This document shows positions 29,894 to 45,807 of a DNA stretch of 64,000 nucleotides, piece after piece. Within the stretch, counting starts at the first letter, position 1. Each line of letters starts with the position of its first letter. The notes beneath the pieces are model-generated. The model saw only the letters and a list, made by a program, of their open reading frames with translations, was not told the origin of the DNA and made no database searches. The position numbers were made by a program, and so were the translations under genes. The stretch is from a virus: positions 108,011 through 172,010 of IMG/VR virus record IMGVR_UViG_3300021440_000014; one strand, written 5' to 3'.

Positions 29894-30063
29894 AAGATAC
29901 TTTCAATTTATACGGTATTTTATTCCTCCGCTCTATTTTTATGTCTTCACGACTCGCTATGACAGACGTTTTTATAGCGGGCATCGCCGCTCCCTTTTAT
30001 CAGGTTTTGTTCGCCTTATTTGGCTTCATGTGTTAATTATGTTATTGCTGCTGTAAGTATCTT
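29894..30063 (-). ncRNA. AGA-N6-CAG scaffold RNA, copy 1
   Basis: AAGATACTT/AAGTATCTT stem, ACAGCAGCAA; starts 8 nt after GTGTAA. Confidence 0.7.
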
Positions 30064-30083
30064 ACTCTTAATTACACTAAAAC

Positions 30084-30182
30084 TAGAAGCTGATTTACAG
30101 TTTACTCTGGGCACTTTTTGTGTGATTACCGTCACGATGAAGCCGGATTACCGGCGTTTATTTTTTTTGCTGTAAGCTTCTA
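30084..30182 (-). ncRNA. AGA-N6-CAG scaffold RNA, copy 2
   Basis: TAGAAGCT/AGCTTCTA stem, ACAGCAAAA. Confidence 0.7.
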
Positions 30183-30188
30183 AAAATC

Positions 30189-30263
30189 TGGAAGCACGTA
30201 TCAGAATTGCACTGATCTATTCGATTTTGCAGATCGACGCCTAATCTACTCGGCCAACGCGCT
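30189..30263 (-). tRNA. tRNA-Cys (GCA)
   Basis: TCGAT-CTGCAAA-ATCGA; TCCA end. Confidence 0.85.
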
Positions 30264-30368
30264 ATTAAATTGGTGACTAATAAATCATTATAGCTGCTAC
30301 CACACCCCAATATTAAAGTGTTTTTGCCTTATTTAAAGTGTCCTACACTCACTATAACTTACTTAAGT

Positions 30369-30442
30369 TGGTATCCCTTGACGGTTTTGCGCCGTCGTCT
30401 CGGACTTGAGAGGCCCGCGATTTACTATTAATCTAAAGGGAC
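30369..30442 (-). tRNA. tRNA-Glu (CTC)
   Basis: CGGGC-CTCTCAA-GTCCG; ACCA. Confidence 0.85.
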
Positions 30443-30808
30443 ATTAAAATGTCAATTTTCCCAAAATTTGTTTTCGTAATTTTCCATCTCTTTTCTCCAA
30501 TTCTGTTCGATTATAGCCATTTTATCGTCTAACTCTTTATTTCTTTTAACTATAATTTCAGGAGTTAGAGTTTTTGCGAATTTTACTGTTTCATTAAAAT
30601 CTAAACTTAGATAAGGATGCATTGCATCACTAAGTCTAGGATCTCCTGTAAAGAAAATTCCACTTCTAAAGAGTGCCCATTTGTCTTTCTCTTTGAATTT
30701 ATACTCTATACAGTAATATTTTGCATTGTAATGACTTACTCTTACTCTAAATTTATCTTGTATATTCTCTGGCTTTGCTTTGAATTTTTTAAAAAATTTG
30801 AACATAAA

Positions 30809-30883
30809 TGGTCAGGTGGGTCGGTTACGCTCCGACTCAATTTCATTCACAGTGAAAGAGGCTACTATTACATCACGCACTTG
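30809..30883 (-). tRNA. tRNA-His (GTG), mismatched acceptor stem
   Basis: TTTCA-CTGTGAA-TGAAA; CCA. Confidence 0.7.
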
Positions 30884-32349
30884 TTTTTAATTATAAAACT
30901 CTACTTCAACCCCAAGCTTCTTAAAATTGTTCTTAATGGCTTTTTCTTTTTGTTCATCTGAGGTATTCTCGTTATCATTAATTTCCATTAAACGATTTGC
31001 AATTTTCGAATTTCCATTTAGACTGCACAGTTCAGGAAGCATATAAGCTTCGTTCTCTTTAACTAGGTCCGAAGGCTCGTATTTATTTTCAATATATTTT
31101 TTATTAATTCCTCGCGCCAATGAGTAAAACCCAAGGCAGCATTTCATACCTTTGCAGTCCAACAGTTCCGCTTCATAGCTAAAATCAGTATGCTTACCTT
31201 TTTGGAAGCGCATCCACTCTTTACGGTTAATTCTAAATTTCTTAATTGGAGATTTTTTCATATAGTAGAGATTAACACATTTTTGAAGAATGTCAATTCG
31301 ATTCTCTATAGGGCGCAAACTGTAATTTGTTAGATTCAAATTTTAAATAATTAGAGTATTTTGAAATACCCAAATCAACAGTAACAGAATTAAAAGTATT
31401 GGCAGTTTCTTTACTTTCTAAAACTTCCATTCTTTTTTCCATTTCCCTAATTAAAGCCTTATTTATCCAATTCATTTCTATTAAAATGTAGGTAGAAGAA
31501 GCAAAAACTAATAAAGCCATTAAACTTAATGAAGTTTCGTATTTTATCATATTGACATTATCTATATTTTATCCATAAAGTCAATAAAAAACGGCAGATT
31601 TCTCTGCCGTTCGCTAATATAATTGAATTTGCTATTATCTAAATTTATAATCTACATTAATCGCAATATAATTATTTTTGCCTGTTACGTTTTGCGGCGT
31701 ATTGTAATTAATAAATGGAGAATCACTATATCCAGTATAAGAAATAAATCTCATTCTTGGCGAAGCGGCAGTGTTTAAATGAGAGCCGGAATGTAGAATT
31801 TTAGTTCCTATCTCGAAAAAGAGAGAATCTCCATCATTCGCCATTCCTGTTCCTACAATCCCATTAAAGTATTGTAGTCTATAGCCCTGAGAATCATATT
31901 TTGAAAAATGAGAGGTATCACTCTGATCGCCAGAATACAAAACTTTTCTTAAATTTCCGCTCTGGTCGCAAACTTTAATAACTAAAGAATTACAGTGCCC
32001 GCTATTTATACCTGTTGGGCCTTTTGGAATGAAATATCCAGTAAAAATACCAGAATTCAAAAATTGAGAGCCGCTAAATACTTTATTGTATTTAAATACT
32101 GATGCAATTATCCTTTTATTAATGTCCTGCCCTGTATTTACAGGATGAAAAATTAACCTCTCAACTCCCGTTGTCGTCGATGGACTTGAATAGCAATCGT
32201 ATTTTAAGTTTGCTCCACCTGTGTAATACCAAAAGCTGTTTGGCGCAGAATAATTTTCATTTCCGCTTATTAGATTTTCGGAAAAATATATTTTAGTGCT
32301 CATATCACTAATTAATACACTAACTCTTGAGTTTTATTCGTTTTTTTAA

Positions 32350-32424
32350 TGGCAGGCATGAAAGGACTTGCACCTTTTTATAATCGCTTCAGAGGCGATC
32401 CGATAACTATTCTCGCACATGCCA
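32350..32424 (-). tRNA. tRNA-Gln (CTG)
   Basis: ATCGC-CTCTGAA-GCGAT; GCCA. Confidence 0.85.
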
Positions 32425-34160
32425 ATCAAAAATTCTTCAAATAAGGTTTAATATGTTTTGGTGTTTTCTGGTTTATTAATTTAGGATTCGTTTCCAAAAT
32501 TAACTTTTGCCCACTTTTAGTTTTCTTGAGCTTTTTAAGAATTACTTCTGCTGTTAAATCGCACCCATCAATATGGATTTTACTTCCCTTTCTGTCGCTC
32601 GGATCTAATAACTGCATTGTTCGGGCGGCTCTATACAATTGATTCATCGCCCAATTTAGTAATTCTTCGTCATTCATAATTCACCTCAATATATTTAACA
32701 CCAATCCGTTTTCCCTGTCAGCATATCCTTTAGTCTTTTCGCTGACTCTGCCGCGTCTTCTCTGGTTGGAATCCTTAGTCCAGCAAAGATACTTCCCTCT
32801 GGAAATGGCGTTAATCCTTCGTAAGGATTTTCTTCTGGAATATGAATCGGCTCCTTAGTAACCGAATCAATAAGTATTGTCTTATGTGTTTTCATTTTTA
32901 CTCTCTATTTTAACGCATTCGTATTTGTCTGTTAGTAAGCTAGTTATATTTGAAATTAACTCTGAGCGAACAACCCATTCATCAATTTCAATTCCGCTAG
33001 GTGGGTTTTTTATAAAGTCTGCCTCAACAATCTGCGCAGCCTCAATAACAGAATCCGCCAAGATTCTATAATTCATTCTCTCTATCTTGCTTATATCTTT
33101 AGAACATATTTTATCTGTTTCCACGATATATAACCCAAAACTTTTGCTATATTTATATTCTTTCGTAAATCAAATACTATAATCTTCTCCTTTAAATTGG
33201 TAATCTTTAATAAACTCAACCACTGAAGGTTCCAGTTCTACTCTATGACATATAGGATAAGAATACTCTATATTATGAGATTTTACCCCATTGAATACTA
33301 ATTTTTTTCCCTTGTCATTAGTTTTCATGTATCTATAGATTTCGTTTATCCATCTTTTACATCTTTCGACTTTATCAGAAGAATTCGCAAACTGAATCCA
33401 ATTTTCCCCATGATTTACTCCATAACCCTCGGAAAGGCATTCAAACACTCCTTGTAAATACGCGATTTTCTTTTCAATCGTATCGAAAAACTCTTCTTTG
33501 AGTTTACCAGTTATACGTCCTGCCGTAAATCCTTCTCGGCCCGGTGGACTCCAATTAAATATATCGTAGTAATCTGGCTTTTCTTTACTGTTATCATGGA
33601 AAGGAGTATCGTAAAAATCTCCCGCCTGAGCCGCTGATTTGATTGCTTTGACATTCATAAATTAGAAACACCCAACCTTAATCACGTTTAATAAGGTAGT
33701 CAGTCATTTCTGCTTCGGTGGTGCGGCTGTTAGAGTCCCGTCCGGGGTAGTTGTTAAACTTAGTCTTCATTCTAAATATATCATATTGAAGAAAGCCAAT
33801 TATTAGCCACATTATGATTAATAAAATTACTAATACTTTAAATTTTAGATCTTTCATGTTAAATTAATTACCAAACATTCGTCGCCGCATATTTTCTATA
33901 TTGTTATTCAAGCGGTTGCGGTTTCTCGCATTCTTGTCCACCCTCAACAGGGGATTGTTTGGTAAAATTACTTTTTATTGCCTCCTCCCAAAAACAACAA
34001 TAAAATTTATTTAAATCCTTTTTAAAAGGATCTCTATGGTTAATTATTCCCATGTCACATGCGTTTGTTCCGTTTTTGAAATAAACCCTAAACTTGCAAT
34101 TAGTGCAATTCTTGTCCATTAATTTAATATAGATTATATTTTATATATGTCAAGTTAAAT

Positions 34161-34241
34161 TGGCCCCGGCGATAGGATTTTCACCTACATTTTCAGATAA
34201 TTACGATTAAAACCTTCAAAGGGTTCCTCGTCTACACCGGA
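34161..34241 (-). tRNA. rewired tRNA-Gln (TTG), D-arm displaced
   Basis: TCCGGTG/CGCCGGG-GCCA; GAACC-CTTTGAA-GGTTT; T-arm. Confidence 0.7.
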
Positions 34242-34310
34242 TTTGATCATTCGCCCTGCTCACACACGTAAACTTACAAACTGGCAATACAGCTTAGGGC
34301 TACTAAAATG

Positions 34311-34382
34311 TGGGTTAGTTCGGTACTGCCCCGAACTCTCTCAGCTTAAGAGGCTGGACTTCGCTTTCAAAGTTTCTAACCC
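34311..34382 (-). tRNA. tRNA-Lys (CTT)
   Basis: CAGC-CTCTTAA-GCTG; GGGTTAG/CTAACCC. Confidence 0.8.
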
Positions 34383-34414
34383 ATGAAAAAATTAGTGAGA
34401 GGAATTGAAAAATC

Positions 34415-34465
34415 AAGATGCTATTCCGCCCCCTCTCAGGGATTTTTATTAACTGTAGGCGTCTT
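34415..34465 (-). ncRNA. AGA-N6-CAG scaffold RNA, copy 3
   Basis: AAGACGC/GCATCTT stem, ACAGT. Confidence 0.6.
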
Positions 34466-34470
34466 TAAAG

Positions 34471-34551
34471 TGGTGGGCAAGGAGGGATTTGAACCCTCAT
34501 TTTATTCCAATTATGCACCCATCGCTTAGAAGGCGCGGCCATTACAAGCCC
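34471..34551 (-). tRNA. rewired tRNA-Arg (TCT), D-arm displaced
   Basis: CGC-CTTCTAA-GCG; AATTGGA after the anticodon arm; TTCAAAT T-loop; ACCA. Confidence 0.7.
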
Positions 34552-34606
34552 AAAATTATGTAACTCATTTACTATGTCTTCTTTTTCTAAAATGTCAAAT
34601 TCTAAA

Positions 34607-34828
34607 AACTAGAACCAATTCTAGGTCAGCCCTGCGCTATGGGTGCCTTGTATTGCAATACCGCTTAGTTCCCCATAGACTACTTATTAAAAAATAAGTA
34701 ATACGGGCATTCCGCCCGCCATCGGATTCTCGCACCGACCCAATCGATTTTCAACCATAATTTTCAGTCTTTCGGCTTTCGCTTCCTGATCCGTTGTGGT
34801 CTGGTCTACTCCTTTTTTGATTCTAGTT
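34607..34828 (-). ncRNA. ~220-nt structured RNA candidate
   Basis: 12-bp terminal stem AACTAGAATCAA/TTGGTTCTAGTT; several internal GC hairpins. Confidence 0.55.
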
Positions 34829-34833
34829 AAAAT

Positions 34834-34909
34834 TGGTGCTGCCGAAAGGAATCTCACCTTCAGTCTTCTCCTTCGTAGGGAGTGGCTTTAATAATTTAGC
34901 TACGACAGC
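34834..34909 (-). tRNA. tRNA-Arg (ACG)
   Basis: CTCC-CTACGAA-GGAG; ACCA. Confidence 0.85.
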
Positions 34910-34923
34910 ATTAAATAGTTTTC

Positions 34924-35018
34924 TGAGGATTTCACAAGGCGATATCCAACGGGGTTCTACCGTCTTTTAAGCTCGCTCAGTTCCCCTTTTTCCTGCGGTA
35001 ATTAAGGAGTCTATCTCA
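34924..35018 (-). ncRNA. ATAGAC...GTGAAATC motif RNA, copy A
   Basis: TGAG-ATAGAC ... GTGAAATC-CTCA. Confidence 0.55.
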
Positions 35019-35257
35019 TTCCACTAGGTTAACCGAAATTTTATTATTGACTTATCATCCAATCTGGTATTGAATCTTCATTTGTCATTAGCCAAGCAAA
35101 ATCCTCTTCAAAAGAGTATAGGTAATTTTGATTTAATGTCCTGTGCTTGGCTCTAAAAACTGTTCTTCCTTTATGTAAAAACGGCTTACCTCTAAACTCA
35201 AGACAGAGGAACCTTTGTTTTATTTCCTCTGAGATGTTATTGTTCATAAATTTAAAT

Positions 35258-35337
35258 TGGTGCATCTGATAGGATTTGAACCTACATTATTCCAATTATA
35301 CGCTAAACTCTTTAGGAAAGAGTGCTATTACAGATGC
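35258..35337 (-). tRNA. rewired tRNA-Arg (CCT), D-arm displaced
   Basis: GCATCTG/CAGATGC-ACCA; ACTCT-TTCCTAA-AGAGT; AATTGGA after the anticodon arm. Confidence 0.75.
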
Positions 35338-35341
35338 ATTT

Positions 35342-35418
35342 TGGTTCGGGATACACAGCCTTTCACTGTTGCACAACGTAGTCATGAGCTACGGCGTCTA
35401 TACTTGCGCCAATCCCAA
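35342..35418 (-). tRNA. atypical tRNA (CAT)
   Basis: CGTAG-CTCATGA-CTACG; irregular T-arm; ACCA. Confidence 0.55.
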
Positions 35419-35842
35419 ATTATTTTAAACTATTATGCAAAGATTTTTCTACCCATTTAGGAGAAGCATCTAATACGTCTTGTATTTCGCTTTTCACTAA
35501 GAGTTCATCTTTTATATCCTCGCTCCACATTTTGATAGTTAGATTAACTAAACTTTTGCCCCATATAGCCCTTTGAACTGTTATAGGATCTTTGCAGGTA
35601 ACTTCTTTTACTACAGACCTACCGTAAGTATCATAAAGATAATAACATTCTTTTGGATCAAGTCCATTAGAATCTAACTTAAAGTAACACATGCATAGAT
35701 AATGTCTTACTTCTTTCTCTGTATATTTCATTAAATAGTTCCACTCTTCTTCAAATTTTTGAGAGAACTCTTTTGGTATTTTTATATTGCGTTTAGCTGT
35801 GTCATATTTTCTTACTCCTGTTTTTTTTTGTTTTTACTAAAT

Positions 35843-35930
35843 TGGTGGTGCCGGTTGGATCTGCCCCAACTATTCCATAAGAATTACGAGATTTACAGTC
35901 TCGCGCCTGATCTAATTTGGCTTCGTCACC
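35843..35930 (-). tRNA. tRNA-Tyr (GTA)
   Basis: CGAGA-CTGTAAA-TCTCG; long variable arm; ACCA. Confidence 0.85.
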
Positions 35931-36265
35931 TTAAAATAAATTCGAACAAGAAACCCCTCTGATGTCCATAGGCGTAATGTCACATACTCATTTCTTGTTC
36001 TCAACACTTAACTTCTCCATTCTTACTCCCGCCACTTCAGTTTGGCCCTATTTAAGTGTTTTAAATTACTTGGAAATCTAAATGCATTTTAAAGGATACT
36101 TTTAGTTCCGTAGGTATCCAACCATCTAATACTTTAATTTGAGATAAAGAATACGTTGTATAAAAAACTTCTCCATAAGTTAGAAAAGATTTGTCTTCCA
36201 CTATTTTTCCTGTTAAAGTTTTGAATTTATTGTCTTTTTTTAGAGTATACCACATATTTTTAAAA

Positions 36266-36333
36266 TGGAGCCACACACGATATCGCAATCGTCACGCCTT
36301 ATTACGAGTAAGGACTAGGTGCTTACGTGCGGC
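36266..36333 (-). tRNA. degenerate tRNA-Thr (CGT)
   Basis: CCTTA-CTCGTAA-TAAGG; poor D-arm; TCCA. Confidence 0.55.
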
Positions 36334-36399
36334 AGAAGAGGATCTGAAAATTAATTCAGTTTACAATGATTGGACCCATGTTTTCTTGACCTCTTTAAA

Positions 36400-36475
36400 T
36401 GGCGAGCTATGAGGGAGTCCCACCCTCTTAATTTCCGCAGACAACGGAATGATTCCAGTCTTCATCTTATAGCCC
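36400..36475 (-). tRNA. tRNA-Asp (GTC)
   Basis: TTCCG-TTGTCTG-CGGAA; GCCA. Confidence 0.8.
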
Positions 36476-37120
36476 ATAAATTTTATTACTTAACTAACTA
36501 ATCTCAAGTGTTTTAAAGTCATAAAAACAAAATGTAACGTCTTTAACCTCATCAATAGACGTTAGATGATGATAAAACCTTTTATCTGATTCTTTTGATT
36601 TTTCTCTTACATAATTTAGATGAAAGACCTTTCCGCATACGGTATATATTTCCGTAACTAAATCTTCTCTCCATATTATGTTTTTAACTTCATACTTCAT
36701 ACATATTAGATTATCTAATCGCTTTTTGCCTCACGTTATTGTTAACGTCTATATCCATTCGCGTTTTGGATTCGATGTAAATTATTCTTTATCTAAAATA
36801 AAACTCTCTTCTTCGTTTTTACCAACAAACTCAATACAATCATTCAGTAATTCAATTAGTTGCTCTTTCTTAAGCTTTAATGTAACCCATCCATTCAAAT
36901 GTTTTGTATCTATGGCTAATACTGTTATTTTACAGCCGTCTTGCTCTTCGAAATCTAATAAAGCCGCCGTTACGAATCCAGATAAACCAAAGCTTTTAGA
37001 ATTTTTATTAAATAATAAACCCATTCCTCTCAATTGCTCGAAGCTCTCAAAAGAGTTGATTATATCTGATATTTTCTTTTTTTTCATGTAAAAGATTACT
37101 ACATTTTTTTAAAAAAATCA

Positions 37121-37224
37121 AGAGGATTTCACACGTAGTTCCTAATTCAGCGTCCGGTTACGCTCCGAATCTTCTGAGCCGCGCCAGCTTGCTTCTATCA
37201 CAACCCGCTAGTTAGTCTATCTCT
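37121..37224 (-). ncRNA. ATAGAC...GTGAAATC motif RNA, copy B (tRNA-like cargo)
   Basis: AGAG-ATAGAC ... GTGAAATC-CTCT; internal TTCGG-AGCGTAA-CCGGA T-arm. Confidence 0.55.
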
Positions 37225-37490
37225 CATTTCTAGAAATATTCCTGCGCTGTTTTTACGCCGACAGGTAGCGGCTTGGGATCACTTCTACCAAGCTCATGGA
37301 CTTCATGAATATTACATTGTCCACTTTTTCAACCGATTTCACGGTTAAGATTTTTAAATTCTATTAGACAGATGGACCTCGAACCCATTTCGACACATAT
37401 CGAACAGCCAGCCTTGCTGTCTAAAATTAATTTGCTCCTCAGTGCTTGCTTTTGCACGTTGCCGCTTTTGACTTGGAGCATTTAGCTAAA

Positions 37491-38332: not shown

Positions 38333-38368
38333 ACTTTATGTTACACTTATCATGTAACATATAGAAAT

Positions 38369-38444
38369 TGGCTGCTAGAACTGGATTCAAACCAGTATCG
38401 ACGATCTTAACAGGATCGGGAATTATCAATTATTCGATCTAGCA
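38369..38444 (-). tRNA. tRNA-Asn (GTT)
   Basis: CGATC-CTGTTAA-GATCG; GCCA. Confidence 0.85.
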
Positions 38445-38451
38445 TTTAAAT

Positions 38452-38531
38452 TGGTGCAAGTGGTGGGTAACGCTCCCACACGAATAGTCTGGTTAAAAGC
38501 CAGTTGGACGTACTTTGGTACCTTCACTTGC
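38452..38531 (-). tRNA. tRNA-Lys (TTT)
   Basis: CTGG-CTTTTAA-CCAG; GCAAGTG/CACTTGC-ACCA. Confidence 0.8.
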
Positions 38532-38600
38532 ATAAATAACATGAATGTTTTGAAGTCCGTCTAAACTTCGTCGGACGGGACACATTATCATTCACTAAAA

Positions 38601-38674
38601 TGGTAGCCTATGCCGGTAACGCTCCGACGAAGCAATCTTATCAGGATTGTATTATACTTTTTAATTAATAGGCT
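38601..38674 (-). tRNA. tRNA-Ile (GAT)
   Basis: CAATC-CTGATAA-GATTG; ACCA. Confidence 0.85.
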
Positions 38675-38788
38675 ATAAAAATTAATTGAGCACTAAAGCG
38701 AATACCCAAAAGGTCTAACTTTAGAATATTCAATTGGAGAGACTCGTCCTTCATTAGCCGCCGCCTTCGATGGGCACGTTGCTCAAAT

Positions 38789-38874
38789 TGGTAGCCGTAA
38801 AAGGACTTGCACCTTCAAGTATTAGAAGATTTTAAGTCTCCCGGTTCTTCGTTTCCCTTTCAATACATACGGCC
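38789..38874 (-). tRNA. rewired tRNA-Leu (TAA)
   Basis: GGAGA-CTTAAAA-TCTTC; 5' insert GTATTG pairs with TAATAC in the variable region. Confidence 0.75.
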
Positions 38875-39086
38875 ATTAAAGATCTAAAAGTTTCAAAGCT
38901 TTAAGAAGTAACTTACTTCCCTTTTTCTTTTTCTCTCTATCAGTCAGACTTTCTTTTAGTTTCGACTTAGGAAGATATTCGTCTCCAGCCCAATTATAAA
39001 TTTTTGCCTTTTCCCAATTTGTAGCTTCTTCTTTTAATATTTCTATAACAATCTTTTTTATTTTAACTTCTAGTTGGTTCATAAAA

Positions 39087-39170
39087 TGGTCGCCATGACA
39101 GGAATCGCACCTGCAAAACTTCAGTTTTTGAAACTGGATGCTGTCCTATTCGCAATTAAGTCACATGGCG
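39087..39170 (-). tRNA. rewired tRNA-Leu (CAA)
   Basis: CAGT-TTCAAAA-ACTG; 5' insert GACTT pairs with AAGTT. Confidence 0.75.
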
Positions 39171-39177
39171 TTTTAAA

Positions 39178-39252
39178 TGGTAGGGTTAGCCGGATCTGCC
39201 CCGCGCCTCTATAGGATGAAAGCCTATTATGCTTCTACTGCACCATAACCCC
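39178..39252 (-). tRNA. tRNA-Glu (TTC)
   Basis: ATAGG-CTTTCAT-CCTAT; ACCA. Confidence 0.8.
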
Positions 39253-39260
39253 TGAAAAAC

Positions 39261-39380
39261 TAGATACATTTTTTTGCTTGTCGGACGTTTTGCCACTAAA
39301 CTACCCACGTCAATGACGTGGACACGAATCGAACGTGCGCTTTCCGATTGGATTTGCTTTTTGTCTGCTGGATGTATCTA
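39261..39380 (-). ncRNA. AGA-N6-CAG scaffold RNA, copy 4, with YrlA-like permuted tRNA module
   Basis: TAGATACAT/ATGTATCTA; TCGGA, GCACG-TTCGATT-CGTGT, CCACGTC-ATT-GACGTGG, GTTT-AGTGGCA-AAAC, TCCGA. Confidence 0.8.
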
Positions 39381-39384
39381 AAAA

Positions 39385-39459
39385 TGGTAGCCCGTGAAGG
39401 AATCGCACCCTCTCTTCTTCCTTGTAAGGGAAGCTCGCTCCTGTTACAATCAACGGGCT
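39385..39459 (-). tRNA. tRNA-Val (TAC)
   Basis: CTTCC-CTTACAA-GGAAG; ACCA. Confidence 0.85.
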
Positions 39460-39464
39460 ATAAA

Positions 39465-39539
39465 TGGTCAGCACGAAAGGTAACGCTCCTTCTTGAACTT
39501 GATCCCAAATCAAGTGCCTCACTTTTAGGCTACGTGCTG
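39465..39539 (-). tRNA. tRNA-Pro (TGG)
   Basis: CTTGA-TTTGGGA-TCAAG; ACCA. Confidence 0.85.
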
Positions 39540-39684
39540 TATAAAGTTTCAGGTCTTTCCTTGTGTCAATCATCATCGGGTTGGTTTCCAACTTACGGAG
39601 CGATTTGCCGCTAGATGTTCTAAATTATTAGAGTATGCAGCGATTATGCTATCATACCCTTCTAAGAGTTTTTATTACTCAAGA

Positions 39685-39756
39685 TGGTGGACCTGTCGGA
39701 TACTGCCTCCGAACGAAAATCTTGCAAGGATTCCCTTATGCCTTCATAACAAGCCC
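39685..39756 (-). tRNA. tRNA-Ala (TGC)
   Basis: GAATC-CTTGCAA-GATTT; G3.U70; ACCA. Confidence 0.8.
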
Positions 39757-40064
39757 ATAAATTACTTATAACTATTTCCCAACTTCTCCCTCCAATTTTC
39801 ATTATAATTTTGATGCGCTTCACATTGAGCTTTTGCTTGCTCTAAAGTGATAGCTGGCTGTTTTTTGACAGCCTCCATTGTATCAATTAACCATTTAGGA
39901 GGAGGAGGAATCCTATTCATTAACTCTTTAAATCTTCTAAGATGTTTTCTTTTTCTTTTTTCGAAATTGATCATAAATTGTGGACTGGAAGGATACCCTA
40001 AATCCTTATTCTAGGCTTCGTAGGATTACTACGTCCTCGCTTTGGTGCAGCCCCATAAAAATTC

Positions 40065-40150
40065 GTTGGATTTCACTTTCGATGGCTCAATTGATTTCGC
40101 GTTACTCCCGCGCACCATCTGCGTTCCCTGTAGCTCTCAGGTCTATCAAC
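40065..40150 (-). ncRNA. ATAGAC...GTGAAATC motif RNA, copy C
   Basis: GTTG-ATAGAC ... GTGAAATC-CAAC. Confidence 0.55.
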
Positions 40151-40170
40151 AAGAACAAAACCTACTTCGT

Positions 40171-40239
40171 CAACAAATTGGATTTGCGCCAACTTCCTCG
40201 GCGTTTGCCGATGCTTTACTACATAAGCTATTTATGTTG
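40171..40239 (-). ncRNA. tRNA-like RNA with a 4-nt loop in place of the anticodon loop
   Basis: D-arm GCTT-ATGTAGTA-AAGC, TCGGC-AAAC-GCCGA, T-arm GTTGG-CGCAAAT-CCAAT; no CCA. Confidence 0.55.
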
Positions 40240-40331
40240 CCTTCTGTTTTTATTCTCTAAAATTGGTGGACCTTATCGCCGCCCTTGCGTCCGAATTTCA
40301 CGGAGTCTCCCCGAAGGAAGTCCTTATTAAA

Positions 40332-40422
40332 TGGCGGAAGCATAGAGAATTGCACTCCAACCGGCTTTTGACCGGACAATTTTAGCAAAATTGCGTAACA
40401 ATCTAATATTTACCTTACTTCC
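40332..40422 (-). tRNA. tRNA-Ser (GCT)
   Basis: CAATT-TTGCTAA-AATTG; long variable arm; GCCA. Confidence 0.85.
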
Positions 40423-40432
40423 AATTAAATAA

Positions 40433-40519
40433 TGGAGCCAACGACAGGTATCGCGCCTGCATACACCTTTCGGTTCTCGCTTTACAAAAGCGGTGAATTA
40501 CTTGTCTATCCACGTTGGC
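40433..40519 (-). tRNA. tRNA-Thr (TGT) with long variable arm
   Basis: CGCT-TTTGTAA-AGCG; ACC-GAAA-GGT extra arm; TCCA. Confidence 0.8.
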
Positions 40520-40526
40520 ATCAAAT

Positions 40527-40608
40527 TGGTGCTCCAACCCCGACTTGCACAGGGACGCTTTCGCACGAAGTTCTAAGCTTCGCATGTCTTCTATTTCATC
40601 ATTGGAGC
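40527..40608 (-). tRNA. tRNA-Leu (TAG)
   Basis: CGAAG-CTTAGAA-CTTCG; ACCA. Confidence 0.85.
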
Positions 40609-40615
40609 TAAAAAT

Positions 40616-40688
40616 TGGTTGCGGTCGCGAGAATTAAACTCGTCCTTAAGCTTATGAAACTTACGTGCAATCATTACACTTCCCCGCA
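40616..40688 (-). tRNA. tRNA-Met (CAT), initiator-like acceptor
   Basis: TGCGGGG 5' end; TAAGT-TTCATAA-GCTTA; AACCA. Confidence 0.75.
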
Positions 40689-40703
40689 TTTTAAAATTAA
40701 AGC

Positions 40704-40765
40704 TAGATAGTTGGGATTTTCAATTCCCTATTTTGTGAAAATAAATTTTATACTGCACCTATCTA
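40704..40765 (-). ncRNA. AGA-N6-CAG scaffold RNA, copy 5
   Basis: TAGATAG/CTATCTA, GCAGT; two hairpins with loops TTCACAA and TTGAAAA. Confidence 0.65.
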
Positions 40766-40778
40766 AACTATGAAAACC

Positions 40779-40836
40779 TAGATCCATTTTTTGTCATTTG
40801 AATAATGAGTTTTTTAATTTTTGCTGTTCGGATCTA
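40779..40836 (-). ncRNA. AGA-N6-CAG scaffold RNA, copy 6
   Basis: TAGATCC/GGATCTA, ACAGCAAAA; TCAT-TATTCAA-ATGA. Confidence 0.7.
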
Positions 40837-40841
40837 TAAAA

Positions 40842-40916
40842 TGGCCCGACAAGTTGGTAACGCTCCAACCTCCACTGTTCTTCAGACAGTTGCTAATCTA
40901 TCTCAGCTATTGGCGG
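40842..40916 (-). tRNA. tRNA-Phe (GAA)
   Basis: ACTGT-CTGAAGA-ACAGT; CCA. Confidence 0.8.
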
Positions 40917-40920
40917 AAAA

Positions 40921-40995
40921 TGGAGCACACGGAGGATTTTGAAACCTCGACGTTCACGTTGGAAGCGTGACATTCTGCCTCTGAATTACGTGTGC
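40921..40995 (-). tRNA. tRNA-Gly (TCC)
   Basis: TCACG-CTTCCAA-CGTGA; TCCA. Confidence 0.9.
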
Positions 40996-41005
40996 TTAAA
41001 TTGAC

Positions 41006-41055
41006 TAGATACGCTTTTTTCCATAAACAAGGATTTTGACTGCTGCACGTATCTA
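41006..41055 (-). ncRNA. AGA-N6-CAG scaffold RNA, copy 7
   Basis: TAGATACG/CGTATCTA, GCAGCAG. Confidence 0.7.
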
Positions 41056-41065
41056 AAAACTTTTC

Positions 41066-41434
41066 TTAAATATTTTTTGGCGTTCTGTGTGATAGTGTAA
41101 AAAAAGCTTTTCTCACCAAGCCTTCCCTTACTTCTACTTCACAAGTTCCAATAAACTCATAAGATTTATAACCTGATTGCGAAGATCCGTCAATATCTAA
41201 AAACGTCCCTTTCGCATAAATTTTTGTTAAACCTGTTTTTTTAGGATTTACAGTTACATTATAATTTGAACCATCAAAATTTGACGATAGTATTTCTATT
41301 ACTTCTTCGTCTTCTACTGTCCAAATGGCATTCTCATTTTCATTAATGAAAACTATATCGTTTTCGGCTGTCATGAATTTTACTTGCAAAACTGCCGTTT
41401 CATCCTTGGCGATTGTAAACTTTTGAATATCCAT
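41066..41434 (-). CDS. Ig-like (beta-sandwich) domain protein, putative
   Basis: W...D.EV, G.T.I.A, CEVEV pattern. Confidence 0.45.
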   Translation of the reverse strand: MDIQKFTIAKDETAVLQVKFMTAENDIVFINENENAIWTVEDEEVIEILSSNFDGSNYNVTVNPKKTGLTKIYAKGTFLDIDGSSQSGYKSYEFIGTCEVEVREGLVRKAFFTLSHRTPKNI

Positions 41435-41458
41435 GTAATATATTACACTTTAAATAAC

Positions 41459-41516
41459 TAGATACTTATTTTTCCTTTAACAGAGGAGTTTTTTTATTTT
41501 TTGCTGTTCGTATCTA
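41459..41516 (-). ncRNA. AGA-N6-CAG scaffold RNA, copy 8
   Basis: TAGATAC/GTATCTA, ACAGCAAAA; TCCT-CTGTTAA-AGGA. Confidence 0.7.
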
Positions 41517-41519
41517 AAA

Positions 41520-41596
41520 TGGCACGGCGAACGAGAGTCGAACTCGTCTATTGCTGGTTTGGAATCAGTTGCTTCACTCTACTTAGCTATCGCCGT
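41520..41596 (-). tRNA. tRNA-Trp (CCA)
   Basis: TTCCAAA loop; ACGGCGA/TCGCCGT-GCCA. Confidence 0.85.
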
Positions 41597-41603
41597 ATAA
41601 AAT

Positions 41604-41678
41604 TGGAGCGGGTAGCGGAATTTGCGTCCGCTTTGAAAAATTGGCAATTTCTCGTAATACTACATATACCATACCCGC
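41604..41678 (-). tRNA. tRNA-Gly (GCC)
   Basis: GCGGGTA/TACCCGC-TCCA; TTGCCAA loop. Confidence 0.85.
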
Positions 41679-41874: not shown

Positions 41875-41902
41875 ATCTTACCAAGTTTTTCGTTTTTGTC
41901 AA
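41875..41902 (-). promoter_or_regulatory. sigma70-type promoter heading the tRNA array
   Basis: TTGACA ... TGG-TAAGAT. Confidence 0.55.
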
Positions 41903-41919
41903 CTCTCTATTTTTCCAAC

Positions 41920-41951
41920 AAAAAACCGCCCTTCTTTTCAGAAAAGGCGGT
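41920..41951 (-). terminator. intrinsic terminator
   Basis: CCGCC...GGCGG followed by TTTTTT. Confidence 0.65.
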
Positions 41952-42193
41952 TAATTCCCCACGAATTTCCCACCCTCCCTAGCAAAAATCTCCATTTGTC
42001 GCTTGGAGGCGACTTGCTTTAACGGACGGTTCTGAAACCCAATATCTCATATCTCTAATAGAATATACACTCTATTTTAAAAAATGTCAAATATTTTTAA
42101 AACTTTCTTCTAAATTCGCTCTACCTTTATCAAGATATAGCAAAAAGGGGCAGTTTTTAGCTGCCTCCCGTTAATTATTTATTGTTTTCTAGA

Positions 42194-43195
42194 TTATTTC
42201 ATTAAAATAAACTTTGTTCCAGCGATAAGCTTTCTATTCGTTGACGTAGACTGTAGAAAGATATCATATTTATTGTTTGTGGCGGGATCTACTTGAACTT
42301 CATGATCTGGTAATCCAAGCAATTGTCTTGCTTCCGCGCCCGCATAAACCTTGCCATTAAGTTTGTCCTGTAAGCAAACCTGCTTATATCCTTGAACCTT
42401 TTCTTTCTTTGTCAATTGATAGAATCCGCTTCCAATTCTATAGGTTTCTTTTGGATTCCAGCTTTCAACGAAATCCTTGATAGGCTTGTCCTTATGAACA
42501 GAGTAAACACTATAATCGCTAGGATTAAGCTCTACAAGAGTAGATTTAACCGTGCTACTATTTAACGCCGCTGTATCAAGTTGGAAAAGATTTTTCGTAG
42601 ATCTTAATCCTTTTGATCTAGAAGTCATAAAAGTGGACGTAACCGTATTTATTTTTTTGCTTGCCTCTTCCAGACCTCTAGAAGAAGTCTCCCAAATTTG
42701 AATGTTTCCAACTGGAAAACCAAATTTTTTACATTCGTGAACTCCATTTTGGTTTGGAACTAAAACAGCCACAGTGTAGTTCTCTGGAAGTGAATTAATC
42801 GTCTCTTTCAGCTTTTTAGCTAAATGGCTATTGATGTTATTCTCTCCATCGGTTTGAACTATAATTAAATTGCTATGATCTCCATATAATTCGGGATTCT
42901 TTTTAAGATCCTCTATAGACTTATAGACTGCATCAATTAATGCAGTCATCCCCCTTGGCTCATAGTGATCTTTTATACTAGGCAGTCTGCATACATCTTG
43001 ATCGTATAACAAACACTTTACTGAATCAGAGAAAACGTAAATAGAAACTCTTGTTTCTTGATCTAATTCTATAGATCTTTGCTTAAGGTGTTCTATTTGT
43101 CTGTCAAATGCTAAAATAGTTTCTTTTTTAAAAATCGACATAGAAGAACTTGCATCTAACACGAAAGAGATATGGTTTATATATTTTTGTATCAT
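42194..43195 (-). CDS. vWA-domain protein with conserved C-terminal domain
   Basis: MIDAS LDASSSM, G.TAL.DA, TDGENN; C-terminal G..FYQLTK, QSTS.NRKL..GT. Confidence 0.85.
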   Translation of the reverse strand: MIQKYINHISFVLDASSSMSIFKKETILAFDRQIEHLKQRSIELDQETRVSIYVFSDSVKCLLYDQDVCRLPSIKDHYEPRGMTALIDAVYKSIEDLKKNPELYGDHSNLIIVQTDGENNINSHLAKKLKETINSLPENYTVAVLVPNQNGVHECKKFGFPVGNIQIWETSSRGLEEASKKINTVTSTFMTSRSKGLRSTKNLFQLDTAALNSSTVKSTLVELNPSDYSVYSVHKDKPIKDFVESWNPKETYRIGSGFYQLTKKEKVQGYKQVCLQDKLNGKVYAGAEARQLLGLPDHEVQVDPATNNKYDIFLQSTSTNRKLIAGTKFILMK

Positions 43196-43277
43196 ATATA
43201 TATAATATAATCTGTTCTTTTTGAAAAATCAAGCAAATATCGTCAATCCTTCTAATTATGTGTAATATAATATTGAA

Positions 43278-44237
43278 ATGAAAAAAGAAAAAATATGTAA
43301 AAAATGCAATAATAATTTTATTATTAATTTCAAAATAAATGACAAAAATATATGTCTCTCTAACCGAAGTTTTTGCTTATTATGTAAACCTAAAAGACAA
43401 AAAATATCGAAAGATGCTATAGAAAATATAATAAAAGAATATAATTTAATTGGAGCAGAAGAATGCCAAAAGAAATTTAAAATATCAAAAAATCAAATTA
43501 CATATATTGCTTCTAAATATAAATTAAAATTAAATCCAAAAACTCATAGTAAAATAAAATCTAAAAGTAAAATAGAGATAGATCCTTTTAAATACAAAGT
43601 TAATCATCTTTCATTCAGTAATATAAATAATTCAATATGCGCTTATATATTAGGGCTAATTTGGACAGATGGACATATTAATTCAAGAAATAACTCGATT
43701 ATATTTTCAACCACATATCCTGATTCCGAATATTTTTCTAAAGAATTCTTAAAAACAGGTTCATGGAACATTTATAGATATAAGTCTAATAAAAATCACA
43801 AAGATAAAATATCAATAATAACTACTAATAAATTCCTAAAAGAAACATTAGTATCTTTGGGTTTTTTAGAAAAAATAAAAGGGTTAGAAAAAGTTTATGA
43901 ACATATACCAGAAAATCTAAAACATTATTTTATTCGGGGGCTAATAGATGGAGACGGATGCTTTTATGTTAATAAAAAGAAATCGATTTATCGTTTTTCT
44001 CTATGCTCCTGTTTAAATCAAAACTGGAACTGCATACAAAAACTACTAGATTCACTTAGCATAAAGTATAAAATAGAAAACTCTACTACAAAAAATGGAT
44101 CTTATAGCAAAATACATATTAGTGGCATACCTAATGTAAAAAAATTTGGCGACTTCGTTTATAGAAATCGCCAAGATGACTTTATTGGATTAGATCGTAA
44201 ATATAAAAAATATTTAGAAGTTCAATTTAAAACCTAA
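43278..44237 (+). CDS. LAGLIDADG homing endonuclease
   Basis: AYILGLIWTDG and YFIRGLIDGDG motifs. Confidence 0.9.
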   Translation: MKKEKICKKCNNNFIINFKINDKNICLSNRSFCLLCKPKRQKISKDAIENIIKEYNLIGAEECQKKFKISKNQITYIASKYKLKLNPKTHSKIKSKSKIEIDPFKYKVNHLSFSNINNSICAYILGLIWTDGHINSRNNSIIFSTTYPDSEYFSKEFLKTGSWNIYRYKSNKNHKDKISIITTNKFLKETLVSLGFLEKIKGLEKVYEHIPENLKHYFIRGLIDGDGCFYVNKKKSIYRFSLCSCLNQNWNCIQKLLDSLSIKYKIENSTTKNGSYSKIHISGIPNVKKFGDFVYRNRQDDFIGLDRKYKKYLEVQFKT

Positions 44238-45807
44238 CATTCGCATATCTCTCCGAAGAAAGGATCTTAACCATTTCGTCGTAAGGATTCGTGATTTTTC
44301 CGCCAAGAATGAACTTTATAGTGCTTGGCGAACTTCCGCTGACAAGCATCACTCCGTCCTCATTCATCTTAGCAGGACTATTATCTTCTCTCGCGTTAAG
44401 ATTCCAGAAGATTATTTCTGGCATTTTATACTTCGCGGCCTTATATTTAGACTTAATAACCTCAAGGTTAGTAAGCTTATTAGACTTGCAAGCTGTATTG
44501 AATTCCATGTCAGAAAAGACAATAAGCTTCTTAGGCATATCGGACTGCTTCACTTTTCTTGCTTTGGCGGACTCAAGAATTAACTCAAATGCCGCTTGCA
44601 AATTAGTGCTTCCACCCCAAGATGCTTTTCTGATATTATTAATCTTTTCGTATACTGTGCTTCCGTTAACAGTCTGCAATTTAGGACTCTCTTCAAAGGT
44701 TATAAACCAATTTTTGAATGGACCGTTATTTCTTTCTGAAACGTAAAGACCCAATCCAATTGAAGAATACATAGGAGGAACACTTGCTCCACCGCTTAAC
44801 ATCGAGCTTGACACGTCAATCAATGGAATCATTGAACACTCACTTCCCTCAAAGAAATCAGGCAAATTATTCCACATAACATCAACTGATGAAGTTGCAT
44901 CTCCACTTAGAACGCTTCTAACTATGTCGTAAGGATAAAGTCCAGAAGTATTGATTTTAACTTCTCCCTTAGCCGCCTTATCTAAGAAGGCTGCATATCT
45001 CTCGTTGTCATTACGAGCAAAAGCCTTTCTATAAAGAAAACCGGCTCTGGAAGGAATCTTATCGTAACTAATAGAACTCCAGTCCTTTTTGCACATGGCC
45101 TGCTCTACAAGAGAAATTTTCTTTCTGAGAAAAGACAAAATCCTACGATAGTTTCTCTCTGAAAGACTCATGAAAGAGGCAAACTTTAGCCCCATCTTTC
45201 GGCTCTCAAGCGAAGAGGCATTGGTCGAAGGCATCCATTTGGCAATAAGCGATGGATTCTCACTGCTGAGATCCGCGTGAAGCTTGTTGTTGATAAATGT
45301 CATCATCTGCTTCTCACACTGCGTTCCAACTAACTCAAAGAGATCGTCAGTTCTTCCATAAAAAAGAATATTCTCAAAGTTGGCTGTAACCACATTAGGA
45401 TAGTTGGAGGCAAGCCATCTTAGGCAAGTTCTAAATGTCTTTCTTTCGCCTTGCCCGCCACGTATATCTCTAATATAAAAAAGAGCCTTCATAGCAAGGT
45501 CGCTATTTTCGAACAATGCCTTTTTAAAGGCGTCCACAACTACGGCTTCAGTTTGAGATCTAAACGCTCCAGCCTTGGAAAAGAAATCCAAGACCTTATC
45601 TCCAGTAGACTTGTTAGTAAGTGCTCCATTAGCAGTAAAAACCTTAGCCTTGGAAGTATCCTCTAAAACCATCGCTTTGAGCAATGGATTAATATTACTA
45701 GAAGGTAGTGCGTTGGCTTTGAAAGAAGCTTGGCTTACGCTCTTTGAGTCTGAAACCTTCTTCTTCGCCTTTGGTAGCTTATTTAACTGTTCGTTAATGT
45801 TTTTCAT
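44227..45807 (-). CDS. DUF2828-family protein (TROVE/Ro60-like helical region plus vWA)
   Basis: T.NGA.T..ST, LDFF, RDIRGGQGER, GR.DD, AKWMP, LYPY.IV, DVSSSM, WGGSTN, FSDMEF, IFWN. Confidence 0.85.
   Translation of the reverse strand: MKNINEQLNKLPKAKKKVSDSKSVSQASFKANALPSSNINPLLKAMVLEDTSKAKVFTANGALTNKSTGDKVLDFFSKAGAFRSQTEAVVVDAFKKALFENSDLAMKALFYIRDIRGGQGERKTFRTCLRWLASNYPNVVTANFENILFYGRTDDLFELVGTQCEKQMMTFINNKLHADLSSENPSLIAKWMPSTNASSLESRKMGLKFASFMSLSERNYRRILSFLRKKISLVEQAMCKKDWSSISYDKIPSRAGFLYRKAFARNDNERYAAFLDKAAKGEVKINTSGLYPYDIVRSVLSGDATSSVDVMWNNLPDFFEGSECSMIPLIDVSSSMLSGGASVPPMYSSIGLGLYVSERNNGPFKNWFITFEESPKLQTVNGSTVYEKINNIRKASWGGSTNLQAAFELILESAKARKVKQSDMPKKLIVFSDMEFNTACKSNKLTNLEVIKSKYKAAKYKMPEIIFWNLNAREDNSPAKMNEDGVMLVSGSSPSTIKFILGGKITNPYDEMVKILSSERYANVRF

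What the first reader, a model, noticed from the sequence alone, without database searches (positions are those of the whole stretch)
29894..45807. Candidate new RNP system: DUF2828 (Ro60-like) protein plus eight Y-like scaffold RNAs with swappable tRNA-mimic cargo
Seen: eight dispersed - strand elements (29894-30063, 30084-30182, 34415-34465, 39261-39380, 40704-40765, 40779-40836, 41006-41055, 41459-41516) share WAGA-N6-CAGY, an A-rich linker, variable cargo and a closing TCTWG. AGA-to-CAG spacing is exactly 6 nt in all eight. The terminal stem covaries (GATAC/GTATC, GAAGC/GCTTC, GATAG/CTATC, GATCC/GGATC). All lie in the tRNA array just downstream of a vWA gene and a DUF2828 gene. Known: Ro60/TROVE proteins bind a terminal-stem module of Y RNAs whose other module is an effector, tRNA-like in YrlA. 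Inference: the stem plus CAGC is the binding site of the DUF2828 protein, and these are a Y-RNA-analogous family with a different binding consensus, used to present tRNA mimics.
Basis: partly seen in the sequence, partly recalled or inferred. Interest (0 to 1): 0.95.

Follow-up and report, generated by a model that had tools for sequence, protein, structure and literature searches.

The report
Phage Ro60-like protein with handle RNAs
A 172-kb phage carries, inside its tRNA gene cluster, seven or eight small RNA genes that share one conserved "handle", plus a gene for a ring protein shaped like the RNA-binding protein Ro60. The same RNA-protein pairing recurs in very different phages and I found no published description, so it looks like a second, undescribed kind of Ro60/Y-RNA particle.

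Summary
Seven of the eight minus-strand elements have a perfect 7-9 bp terminal helix (UAGAnnn/nnnUCUA), unpaired (A)CAGCA 3 nt after the 5' strand, and a G after the 3' strand. The eighth (34465-34415) is a degenerate copy.

- **Protein:** the 526-aa DUF2828/DUF7788 protein is predicted to have the full-length Ro60 fold (Z 21, about 415 residues aligned).
- **RNA next to the gene:** a covariance model of the handle gave 136 significant hits in 80 distant DUF2828 loci. All 136 lie on the gene's strand, and 65 lie within 300 nt upstream of the gene.
- **Reverse test:** viral contigs found by the RNA pattern alone encode DUF2828 in 11 of 11 near-complete genomes.
- **Controls:** T4, T5, SPO1 and Bxz1 have neither the protein nor the RNA. 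KVP40 has both.
- **Databases:** Rfam has no matching family, and I found no paper on these RNAs.
- **Cargo:** only two of the eight bodies mimic tRNA here. One is a YrlA-like permuted tRNA; the other is an Asn-type anticodon loop.

Best reading: these are Y-RNA-like partner RNAs of a Ro60 paralogue, released from the tRNA operon. Expression and binding are untested. This scan has reported the same system before on other DNA.

The parts
44227..45807 (-). Gene for the 526-aa Ro60-like protein (DUF2828 + DUF7788/vWA). Homologues align from about residue 55. The MIDAS residues D331-x-S333-x-S335, T401 and D433 are invariant.
   Evidence: Pfam DUF7788 4e-52 and DUF2828 1e-34. PHROG 850 'RNA-binding protein'. 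AF2 model pLDDT 87.8. Ro60 structures are the top matches: Foldseek E 2e-9 and VIA-align Z 21.1 with 419 residues aligned. Invariant columns.
41459..41516 (-). Handle RNA 8 (58 nt). Starts 3 nt after tRNA-Trp. Its body is a 4-bp hairpin with the loop CUGUUAA, the same loop as the phage's own tRNA-Asn anticodon loop.
   Evidence: Model R1 54.2 bits, though it was a seed. Loop comparison.
41006..41055 (-). Handle RNA 7 (50 nt), 10 nt upstream of tRNA-Gly.
   Evidence: R1 37.5 bits, seed.
40779..40836 (-). Handle RNA 6 (58 nt), directly after a tRNA-like gene (40845-40916).
   Evidence: R1 53.5 bits, seed.
40704..40765 (-). Handle RNA 5 (62 nt), 13 nt after RNA 6. Motif variant CAGUA.
   Evidence: R1 31.0 bits, seed.
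39261..39380 (-). Handle RNA 4 (120 nt). Its body is a circularly permuted tRNA mimic: T arm, capped acceptor-like hairpin, then D arm, as in YrlA.
   Evidence: Rfam YrlA 22.9 bits over the full model, with high-confidence alignment of the T, acceptor and D arms but not of the Ro60-binding helix. Fold z-score -3.2.
34415..34465 (-). Doubtful or decayed handle RNA 3 (51 nt). One stem mismatch, and CAGUU in place of CAGCA.
   Evidence: Fold no better than shuffles. R1 12.3 bits, E 2.6.
30084..30182 (-). Handle RNA 2 (99 nt), 6 nt after tRNA-Cys. Handle reads CUUACAGCAA. The body has two hairpins that are not tRNA-like.
   Evidence: Fold z-score -3.6. R1 31.7 bits, E 2e-4, and it was not in the seed.
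29894..30063 (-). Handle RNA 1 (170 nt), 20 nt after RNA 2. It has a 9-bp terminal helix, ACAGCAGCAA, and a long multi-hairpin body.
   Evidence: fold z-score -2.7. The body is too long for R1 to span.
41875..41902 (-). Promoter-like site (TTGACA, 16 nt, TG-TAAGAT) just after a terminator-like hairpin at 41924-41952. It probably starts the tRNA/handle-RNA operon.
   Evidence: Consensus scan only.
29186..41678 (-). tRNA array, about 17-19 tRNA and tRNA-like genes, in which all the handle RNAs are embedded.
   Evidence: ARAGORN found 10. Rfam tRNA hits added more.

Best explanation
The elements are genes for small non-coding RNAs transcribed as part of the phage's tRNA operon and probably cut out by the tRNA-processing machinery.

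Each RNA has two parts. The first is a constant 'handle': a 7-9 bp helix joining its two ends, with a fixed G-C third pair, unpaired (A)CAGCA(A) about 3 nt after the 5' strand, an A-rich 3' side, and a G right after the helix. The second is a free-to-vary body.

The handle is the docking site for the phage's Ro60-like DUF2828-vWA ring protein. The phage therefore makes a set of Ro60/Y-RNA-like particles that differ only in the RNA body. Bodies that copy tRNA parts (a permuted whole tRNA in RNA 4, an Asn-type anticodon arm in RNA 8) would bring the particle to proteins that handle tRNA.

By analogy with Rsr-YrlA-PNPase/RtcB, the particles would act in one of two ways. They could survey or repair tRNA during infection, or they could act as decoys for host tRNA-cutting defence nucleases.

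Shown here: the RNA family, its covarying helix, its two-way genomic link to DUF2828, and the Ro60 fold. Inferred: expression as discrete RNAs, direct binding, and the downstream function.
For: 1. Fold. Ro60 structures are the top full-length matches: Z 21.1, 412-419 residues, rmsd about 4 A. vWA-only matches reach about Z 11.
2. Protein to RNA. Model R1 gives 136 hits at E<=0.01 in 1.49 Mb around 80 DUF2828 genes that are only 37-45% identical to this one. All 136 are on the gene's strand, in 65 loci, and 65 lie within 300 nt upstream of the gene. A plain pattern scan gave 248 hits on the gene strand, 58 on the other, and 24/21 in reversed sequence.
3. RNA to protein. Contigs found with the RNA pattern alone encode DUF2828 in 18 of 27 records, and in 11 of 11 records that are at least 90% complete. 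DUF2828 matches about 1.4% of phage records overall. A second pattern gave 108 stretches and its reversed control gave 0.
4. Controls. T4, T5, SPO1 and Bxz1 (a canonical-Ro60 phage) have no DUF2828 and no R1 hit. KVP40, picked as a control, turned out to have both.
5. RNA-level helix. 95% of cells are paired, all 8 pairs show changes on both sides, and G-U pairs are present.
6. Cultured phages have the pairing too: Zakai, Listeria LP-048 (with RtcB 1.3 kb away) and Felixounavirus EC6.
7. tRNA-like bodies. Anticodon-type loops occur in 65 of 336 short elements against 6 in shuffles. T-loops occur in 71 against 1. YrlA aligns to RNA 4.
Against: - There are no expression or binding data of any kind.
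- In this phage the RNAs are 2.7-14 kb from the gene rather than adjacent.
- Six of the eight bodies here show no tRNA likeness.
- No RtcB or CCA-adding enzyme is encoded in this genome, so an RNA-repair role has no local support beyond one Rnl2-type ligase.
- The sequences used for the covariation counts were chosen or aligned with the helix in mind, so the helix statistics lean towards it. The enrichment, strand and control tests do not share this bias.
- Many contigs in the tests may be related phages, so the counts are not fully independent.
Confidence: 0.7

Rival explanations
1. The handles are cis-acting operator sites on the tRNA-operon or DUF2828 transcripts. The protein, or another factor, uses them to control processing, stability or translation. 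They are not stand-alone partner RNAs.
For: Nearly half of the family's members lie within 300 nt upstream of the DUF2828 gene on the same strand, where a leader or autoregulatory site would sit.
Against: In this window no handle lies at the gene's 5' end. All copies sit in tRNA-sized slots between tRNAs, up to 14 kb away. Closed-ended modules that carry whole permuted tRNAs look like products, not operators.
Confidence: 0.12
2. The handle is punctuation for the tRNA operon: a mini-helix recognised by RNase P, RNase Z or RNase E, or a stabilising hairpin. It has no direct link to the DUF2828 protein, and the two merely travel together in tRNA-rich phages.
For: Every copy abuts a tRNA or another copy. 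The 7-bp helix followed by a single fixed base resembles an acceptor stem plus discriminator. In some relatives the helix takes the acceptor stem's place next to a T arm.
Against: Phages with tRNA genes but no DUF2828 (T4, T5, SPO1, Bxz1) lack it. All 11 near-complete genomes found by the motif have DUF2828. Many copies flank the gene where no tRNA is nearby, as in L003 and L006.
Confidence: 0.1
3. They are DNA-level repeats: miniature mobile elements with terminal inverted repeats, recombination sites or endonuclease targets.
For: They have terminal inverted repeats around variable cargo. Homing endonuclease genes lie in the same region: LAGLIDADG at 43278-44237 and HNH at 37568-38332.
Against: The strand bias is absolute, 136 to 0. 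G-U pairs in the helix would be A-C on the other strand. The arms covary rather than being conserved. No target-site duplications or identical copies were seen.
Confidence: 0.03

Closest known systems
Bacterial and mycobacteriophage Ro60 (Rsr, TROVE domain) with YrlA-type Y RNAs (Chen et al. 2014, PMC4201824; Rfam RF02553)
   Same: Both have a ring-plus-vWA protein with the same overall fold. The small RNAs are encoded beside or near the gene and are modular: a terminal protein-binding helix plus an effector body. In RNA 4 the body is a permuted tRNA mimic (T arm, capped acceptor hairpin, D arm), as in YrlA. Some relatives are linked to RtcB.
   Different: The protein belongs to other Pfam families (DUF2828/DUF7788; no TROVE hit at E<=0.01) and is only about 10-14% identical to Ro60 structures. 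The handle (fixed G-C, unpaired CAGCAA, 3' G) is unlike the bulged Ro60-binding helix. YrlA scores 22.9 bits against a cut-off of 69. There are many RNAs per genome (8 here) with very varied bodies, most of them not tRNA-like.
Thermus phage phiLo Ro60 with Yrl1/Yrl2 (PMC12135203; PDB 9KOP, 9L5Y)
   Same: A phage-encoded Ro60-fold protein with phage-encoded partner RNAs just upstream of its gene. It appears among the structural matches (Z 14-15).
   Different: phiLo Ro60 is a canonical TROVE protein. Its Yrl RNAs were picked by a CGAA motif in an internal loop, not by a CAGCAA handle.
Class I RNAs of Dictyostelium (Kjellin et al. 2021, PMC7919456; Rfam RF01414)
   Same: They are 42-65 nt RNAs with a short helix joining the two ends, the motif CCUUACAGCAA right after the 5' strand, a variable remainder and a 3'-terminal UG. 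RNA 2 of this window contains CUUACAGCAA exactly.
   Different: RF01414 does not score the window's elements (best 10.3 bits on RNA 8 against a cut-off of 41.5). In Class I RNAs the helix's fixed G lies 2 nt farther from CAGCAA. Their known binder is the RRM protein Rnp1A. Whether dictyostelids have a DUF2828 protein was not tested here.

Membership tests
Ro60 / TROVE protein family | Ring of helical repeats followed by a vWA domain with a MIDAS site (overall Ro60 fold) | tested here: met
   The AF2 model (pLDDT 87.8) matches 2I91, 1YVP and 1YVR at Z 21, with 412-419 residues aligned across model residues 52-507. DxSxS, T and D of the MIDAS site are invariant in 38 homologues.
Ro60 / TROVE protein family | Sequence match to the TROVE domain (Pfam PF05731) | tested here: not met
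   Pfam hits at E<=0.01 are DUF7788, DUF2828 and VWA_2 only. A profile of 38 homologues reaches TROVE-domain chains in the PDB only at E 1.4.
Ro60 / TROVE protein family | Binds Y RNAs on the outer ring surface and single-stranded RNA ends in the central hole | not testable with these tools
   Needs biochemistry or a structure of the complex.
YrlA (Rfam RF02553) | Score at or above the family's gathering threshold | tested here: not met
   Only element 39380-39261 matches, at 22.9 bits against 69.
YrlA (Rfam RF02553) | tRNA-like module with T arm, closed acceptor-like hairpin and D arm, in that order | tested here: met
   Met for element 39380-39261 only. The three arms align with high posterior probability.
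YrlA (Rfam RF02553) | Conserved Ro60-binding terminal helix | tested here: not met
   The model's outer helices are deleted or unpaired in the alignment. The terminal helix here is the CAGCA handle.
Dictyostelium Class I RNA (Rfam RF01414) | Score at or above the family's gathering threshold | tested here: not met
   The best hit in the whole 172-kb genome is 17 bits against 41.5, and it is not at an element. RNA 8 scores 10.3 bits. No hit at E<=10 on RNAs 5, 6 or 8.
Dictyostelium Class I RNA (Rfam RF01414) | Short terminal helix, 11-nt motif ending in CAGCAA after the 5' strand, variable body | tested here: inconclusive
   The architecture and the CAGCAA core agree by eye with sequences in the paper's supplement. 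The register of the helix differs by 2 nt, and no alignment-based test was possible.
Handle-RNA family defined here (model R1) | 7-8 bp terminal helix with G-C third pair, N3, CAGCA(A), G after the 3' strand, on the strand of a DUF2828 gene in the same genome | tested here: met
   Seven of eight elements meet all points. Element 34465-34415 meets them only loosely.

The most novel reading that the evidence does not exclude
The CAGCAA-handle RNAs and their DUF2828 Ro60-like partner may be one ancient RNA-protein system that reaches beyond phages into eukaryotes. On this reading the orphan Class I RNAs of Dictyostelium are members of the same RNA class, and their missing core partner would be a DUF2828-type protein. 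The shared features are a short terminal helix, CUUACAGCAA after the 5' strand, a variable body and a 3' UG.
Probability: 0.12. Interest if true: 0.9.

Novelty: new variant of a known kind. Interest (0 to 1): 0.8.

Why it matters
Ro60 and Y RNAs are a classic but still poorly understood RNA-surveillance particle. A second lineage appears here, with a different protein family, a different RNA handle and up to a dozen interchangeable RNA bodies per genome. It is present in easily handled phages (Felix O1-type, Listeria P100-type, KVP40, mycobacteriophages), which would give a tractable system for asking what such particles do.

The tRNA-shaped and anticodon-loop bodies make one specific idea testable: phages may use these particles to protect, repair or decoy tRNA during the fight with host tRNA-cutting defences. 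The finding would also assign a role to DUF2828. In the searches here it matched about 700 phage records and about 6,900 protein-cluster representatives at E<=0.001. Finally, it would explain unannotated gaps in phage tRNA clusters.

Tried and rejected
- **Rfam.** No family reaches its threshold on the elements here or in seven related loci; only tRNA and tmRNA do.
- **Close relatives.** Megablast of the region against 50,697 phage records found nothing. The nearest DUF2828 proteins are below 50% identity.
- **Sequence search of the PDB.** This gave no significant match with the single protein or with a profile. Only the fold comparison showed Ro60.
- **Conserved protein partner.** The adjacent 333-aa vWA gene, the DUF6915 gene and other neighbours are not conserved beside DUF2828 (0-1 of 80 loci). 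RtcB is within 10 kb in 6 of 80.
- **Handle at the start codon.** A handle on the DUF2828 start codon, reported elsewhere by this scan, is absent here.
- **Model limits.** R1 cannot span long bodies, so it misses the 170-nt element and scores the 120-nt one at 12 bits. It also misses a subgroup with 5-nt spacing.
- **Literature.** Searches for DUF2828, Ro-like phage proteins, phage Y-like RNAs, and Class I RNA with Ro60 found no description of these RNAs. Avesson et al. 2011, on the proteins bound to Class I RNA, is not held.
- **Protein atlas.** The look-up returned only bacterial and viral clusters. It therefore said nothing about eukaryotic DUF2828.


Full report
**Setting.** The window is the last 64 kb of a 172,010-bp virus record that CheckV rates as complete. 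Around the finding almost everything is on the minus strand. Going downstream there is a promoter-like site, then the 526-aa ORF at 45807-44227 and a terminator-like hairpin. Next come a LAGLIDADG endonuclease gene on the other strand, a 333-aa vWA gene and a second terminator-like hairpin. A TTGACA/TAAGAT promoter-like site at 41902-41875 follows. After that a 12-kb array of about 17-19 tRNA and tRNA-like genes runs to 29.2 kb. A tmRNA gene lies at 25028-24590.

**Observation.** I read all eight elements. WAGA-N6-CAGY occurs 16 times in the window. Only the eight reported sites also have a closing arm. Seven have a perfect complement of the 7-nt arm within 260 nt, and no other site does. All eight end in UCUWG, and the helices differ by compensatory changes.
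- Predicted folds keep the terminal helix and leave CAGCA unpaired. Folding energies are 1.6 to 3.6 sd below shuffles for seven of them.
- Element 34465-34415 is the exception. It has a stem mismatch, reads CAGUU, and folds no better than shuffles.
- Each element starts a few nucleotides after a tRNA or after another element, so the elements occupy tRNA-like slots in the operon.

**The protein.** Pfam gives DUF7788 and DUF2828, with no TROVE hit. PHROGs calls the family 'RNA-binding protein'.
- Homologues are abundant. About 6,900 cluster representatives match at E<=0.001. There are 704 phage records, including Felixounavirus, Listeria, Staphylococcus, Campylobacter, Vibrio and mycobacteriophages, where annotators already write 'Ro-like RNA binding protein'.
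- An AlphaFold model built on 38 homologues (pLDDT 87.8) has Ro60 structures as its top twelve Foldseek matches (E about 1e-9).
- With VIA-align it reaches Z 21 against Xenopus and human Ro60 over 412-419 residues, spanning the whole chain. Thermus phage phiLo Ro60 and Deinococcus Rsr reach Z 13-15. Matches to vWA domains alone reach about Z 11.
- The MIDAS residues are invariant in the 38 homologues. The fold is therefore Ro60's, although sequence methods do not see it.

**The RNA family elsewhere.** I fetched 80 viral loci around DUF2828 genes that are only 37-45% identical to this one.
- A plain scan (7-nt arm, N2-3, CAGCA, complementary arm within 260 nt) gave 248 hits on the gene's strand and 58 on the other. 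Reversed-sequence controls gave 24 and 21. Hits were present in 75 of 80 loci.
- Forty-five short copies align with an invariant G in the third pair of the helix, invariant C-A-G and A in CAGCA, an invariant partner C, and an invariant unpaired G after the helix.
- A covariance model (R1) found 136 matches at E<=0.01 in these 1.49 Mb. All are on the gene's strand, in 65 loci, and 65 lie within 300 nt upstream of the gene.
- In that alignment 95% of helix cells pair, all eight pairs change on both sides, and G-U pairs occur. These counts lean on how the sequences were chosen. The strand, position and control results do not.
- In the window R1 recovers its four seeds plus the non-seed element 30182-30084 (31.7 bits). 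It finds nothing else in the 172-kb genome.

**Reverse test and controls.**
- Scanning 2.9 million viral contigs for UAGAUAC-N3-CAGCA-N20-50-GUAUCUAG gave 30 stretches. Of the 27 records held, 18 encode DUF2828, and all 11 that are at least 90% complete do. DUF2828 matches about 1.4% of phage records overall.
- A second stem variant gave 108 stretches, while its reversed pattern gave none.
- In whole genomes of T4, T5, SPO1 and Bxz1 (which has a canonical Ro60) there is no DUF2828 and no R1 match better than E 0.18. KVP40, chosen as a control, proved to have a DUF2828 gene and a 33-bit R1 match 7 kb away on the same strand.
- Cultured carriers show the same layout. Listeria phage LP-048 has three copies just upstream of the gene and an RtcB ligase 1.3 kb downstream. 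Mycobacteriophage Zakai has copies flanking a tRNA just after the gene. Felixounavirus EC6 has one weak copy.

**The bodies.**
- Element 39380-39261 holds a T arm, a closed acceptor-like hairpin and a D arm in the order seen in YrlA. Rfam YrlA aligns these arms with high confidence but deletes its own Ro60-binding helices (22.9 bits).
- Element 41516-41459 carries a hairpin whose loop CUGUUAA equals the anticodon loop of the phage's tRNA-Asn.
- The other six bodies show no tRNA likeness.
- Across the family, 65 of 336 short elements have an anticodon-type loop, against 6 in shuffles. The commonest triplets are GUU, UUU, UGA and GCU.
- T-loops occur in 71 bodies against 1 in reversed controls. 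They fall into two layouts: a permuted whole tRNA, or a body in which the handle helix takes the place of the acceptor stem.
- The bodies are therefore interchangeable. They are often built from tRNA parts, but by no means always.

**Mechanism.** The simplest account is a Ro60/Y-RNA-like particle in which the handle docks on the ring and the body sets the partner.
- The position in the tRNA operon suggests release by tRNA-processing enzymes.
- No protein gene is conserved beside DUF2828. The neighbouring vWA gene recurs in 1 of 80 loci and RtcB in 6 of 80.
- This genome has no RtcB or CCA-adding enzyme, but it has an Rnl2-type ligase.
- What the particle does (tRNA surveillance or repair, or decoying host anticodon nucleases) is inference by analogy.
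- The rivals are cis-acting operators, operon punctuation and DNA-level repeats. They are weighed in their own sections. The controls and the absolute strand bias count against the last two.

**Known or new.**
- Canonical phage Ro60 with Y-like RNAs is published (PMC4201824, PMC12135203), and a review notes TROVE proteins in jumbo phages (PMC7824862).
- I found no paper on DUF2828-linked RNAs and no Rfam family.
- Earlier notes of this scan describe the same pairing in other phages, giant viruses and bacteria, so the scan has seen this system before on other DNA.
- Those notes also point to Dictyostelium Class I RNAs. The paper's supplement shows GUUGAC-CUUACAGCAA...GUCAAC-UG. That is the same design, with the same ten bases as element 30182-30084. 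However, RF01414 does not score the window's elements, the register differs by 2 nt, and I could not test the protein side. I treat this as a lead only.

**Verdict.** It is untested for binding and overstated for tRNA-mimic cargo. It is a new variant of a known kind of system, of high interest.

Noticed in passing
window 27077-27141 (-): Possible ninth, decayed handle element in an intergenic gap. It reads AAGAUAC-GUC-CAGCC, with a closing GUAUCCAAG that gives only a 5-bp helix. It was not found by model R1.
   Followed up: partly
window 39560-40330 (-): About 770 nt between tRNA-Pro and tRNA-Ser have no convincing long ORF. Several stretches end in GGUCCACCA-like tRNA 3' ends, and there is one weak alpha-tmRNA partial hit (39650-39712, 23 bits). 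These may be further structured RNAs of unknown kind.
   Followed up: no
window 24590-25028 (-): Phage-encoded tmRNA gene (Rfam 99.5 bits, full length) about 4 kb downstream of the tRNA array.
   Followed up: no
window 43278-44237 (+) and 37568-38332 (-): A LAGLIDADG homing endonuclease gene is wedged, on the opposite strand, between the DUF2828 gene and the vWA gene. An HNH endonuclease gene sits inside the tRNA array.
   Followed up: no
window 13151-13660 (-): Rnl2-type RNA ligase domain (PF09414, 84.9 bits) in a 332-aa ORF. It is the only RNA-repair-type enzyme found in the genome among those searched.
   Followed up: partly
L236 record (Vibrio phage KVP40, AY283928) 168943-169677 (-) and 176662-176725 (-): KVP40, picked as a negative control, encodes a DUF2828 protein and a 33-bit handle RNA on the same strand 7 kb away. 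This makes it a well-studied phage in which the system could be tested.
   Followed up: partly
L008 10274-10386, L036 9436-9552, L005 11747-11859 and others: Rfam 'tRNA' matches of 113-134 nt lie next to DUF2828 genes. They are too long for ordinary tRNAs, so they are probably tRNA-like bodies of handle RNAs or intron-bearing tRNAs.
   Followed up: no
PMC7919456, supplementary file 56: The Class I RNA model of that paper gave an Arabidopsis candidate (score 40) with a short terminal helix, AUUACAGCAA and a 3' UG. The authors discarded it for lack of the dictyostelid promoter. Plant papers mention DUF2828 proteins.
   Followed up: no
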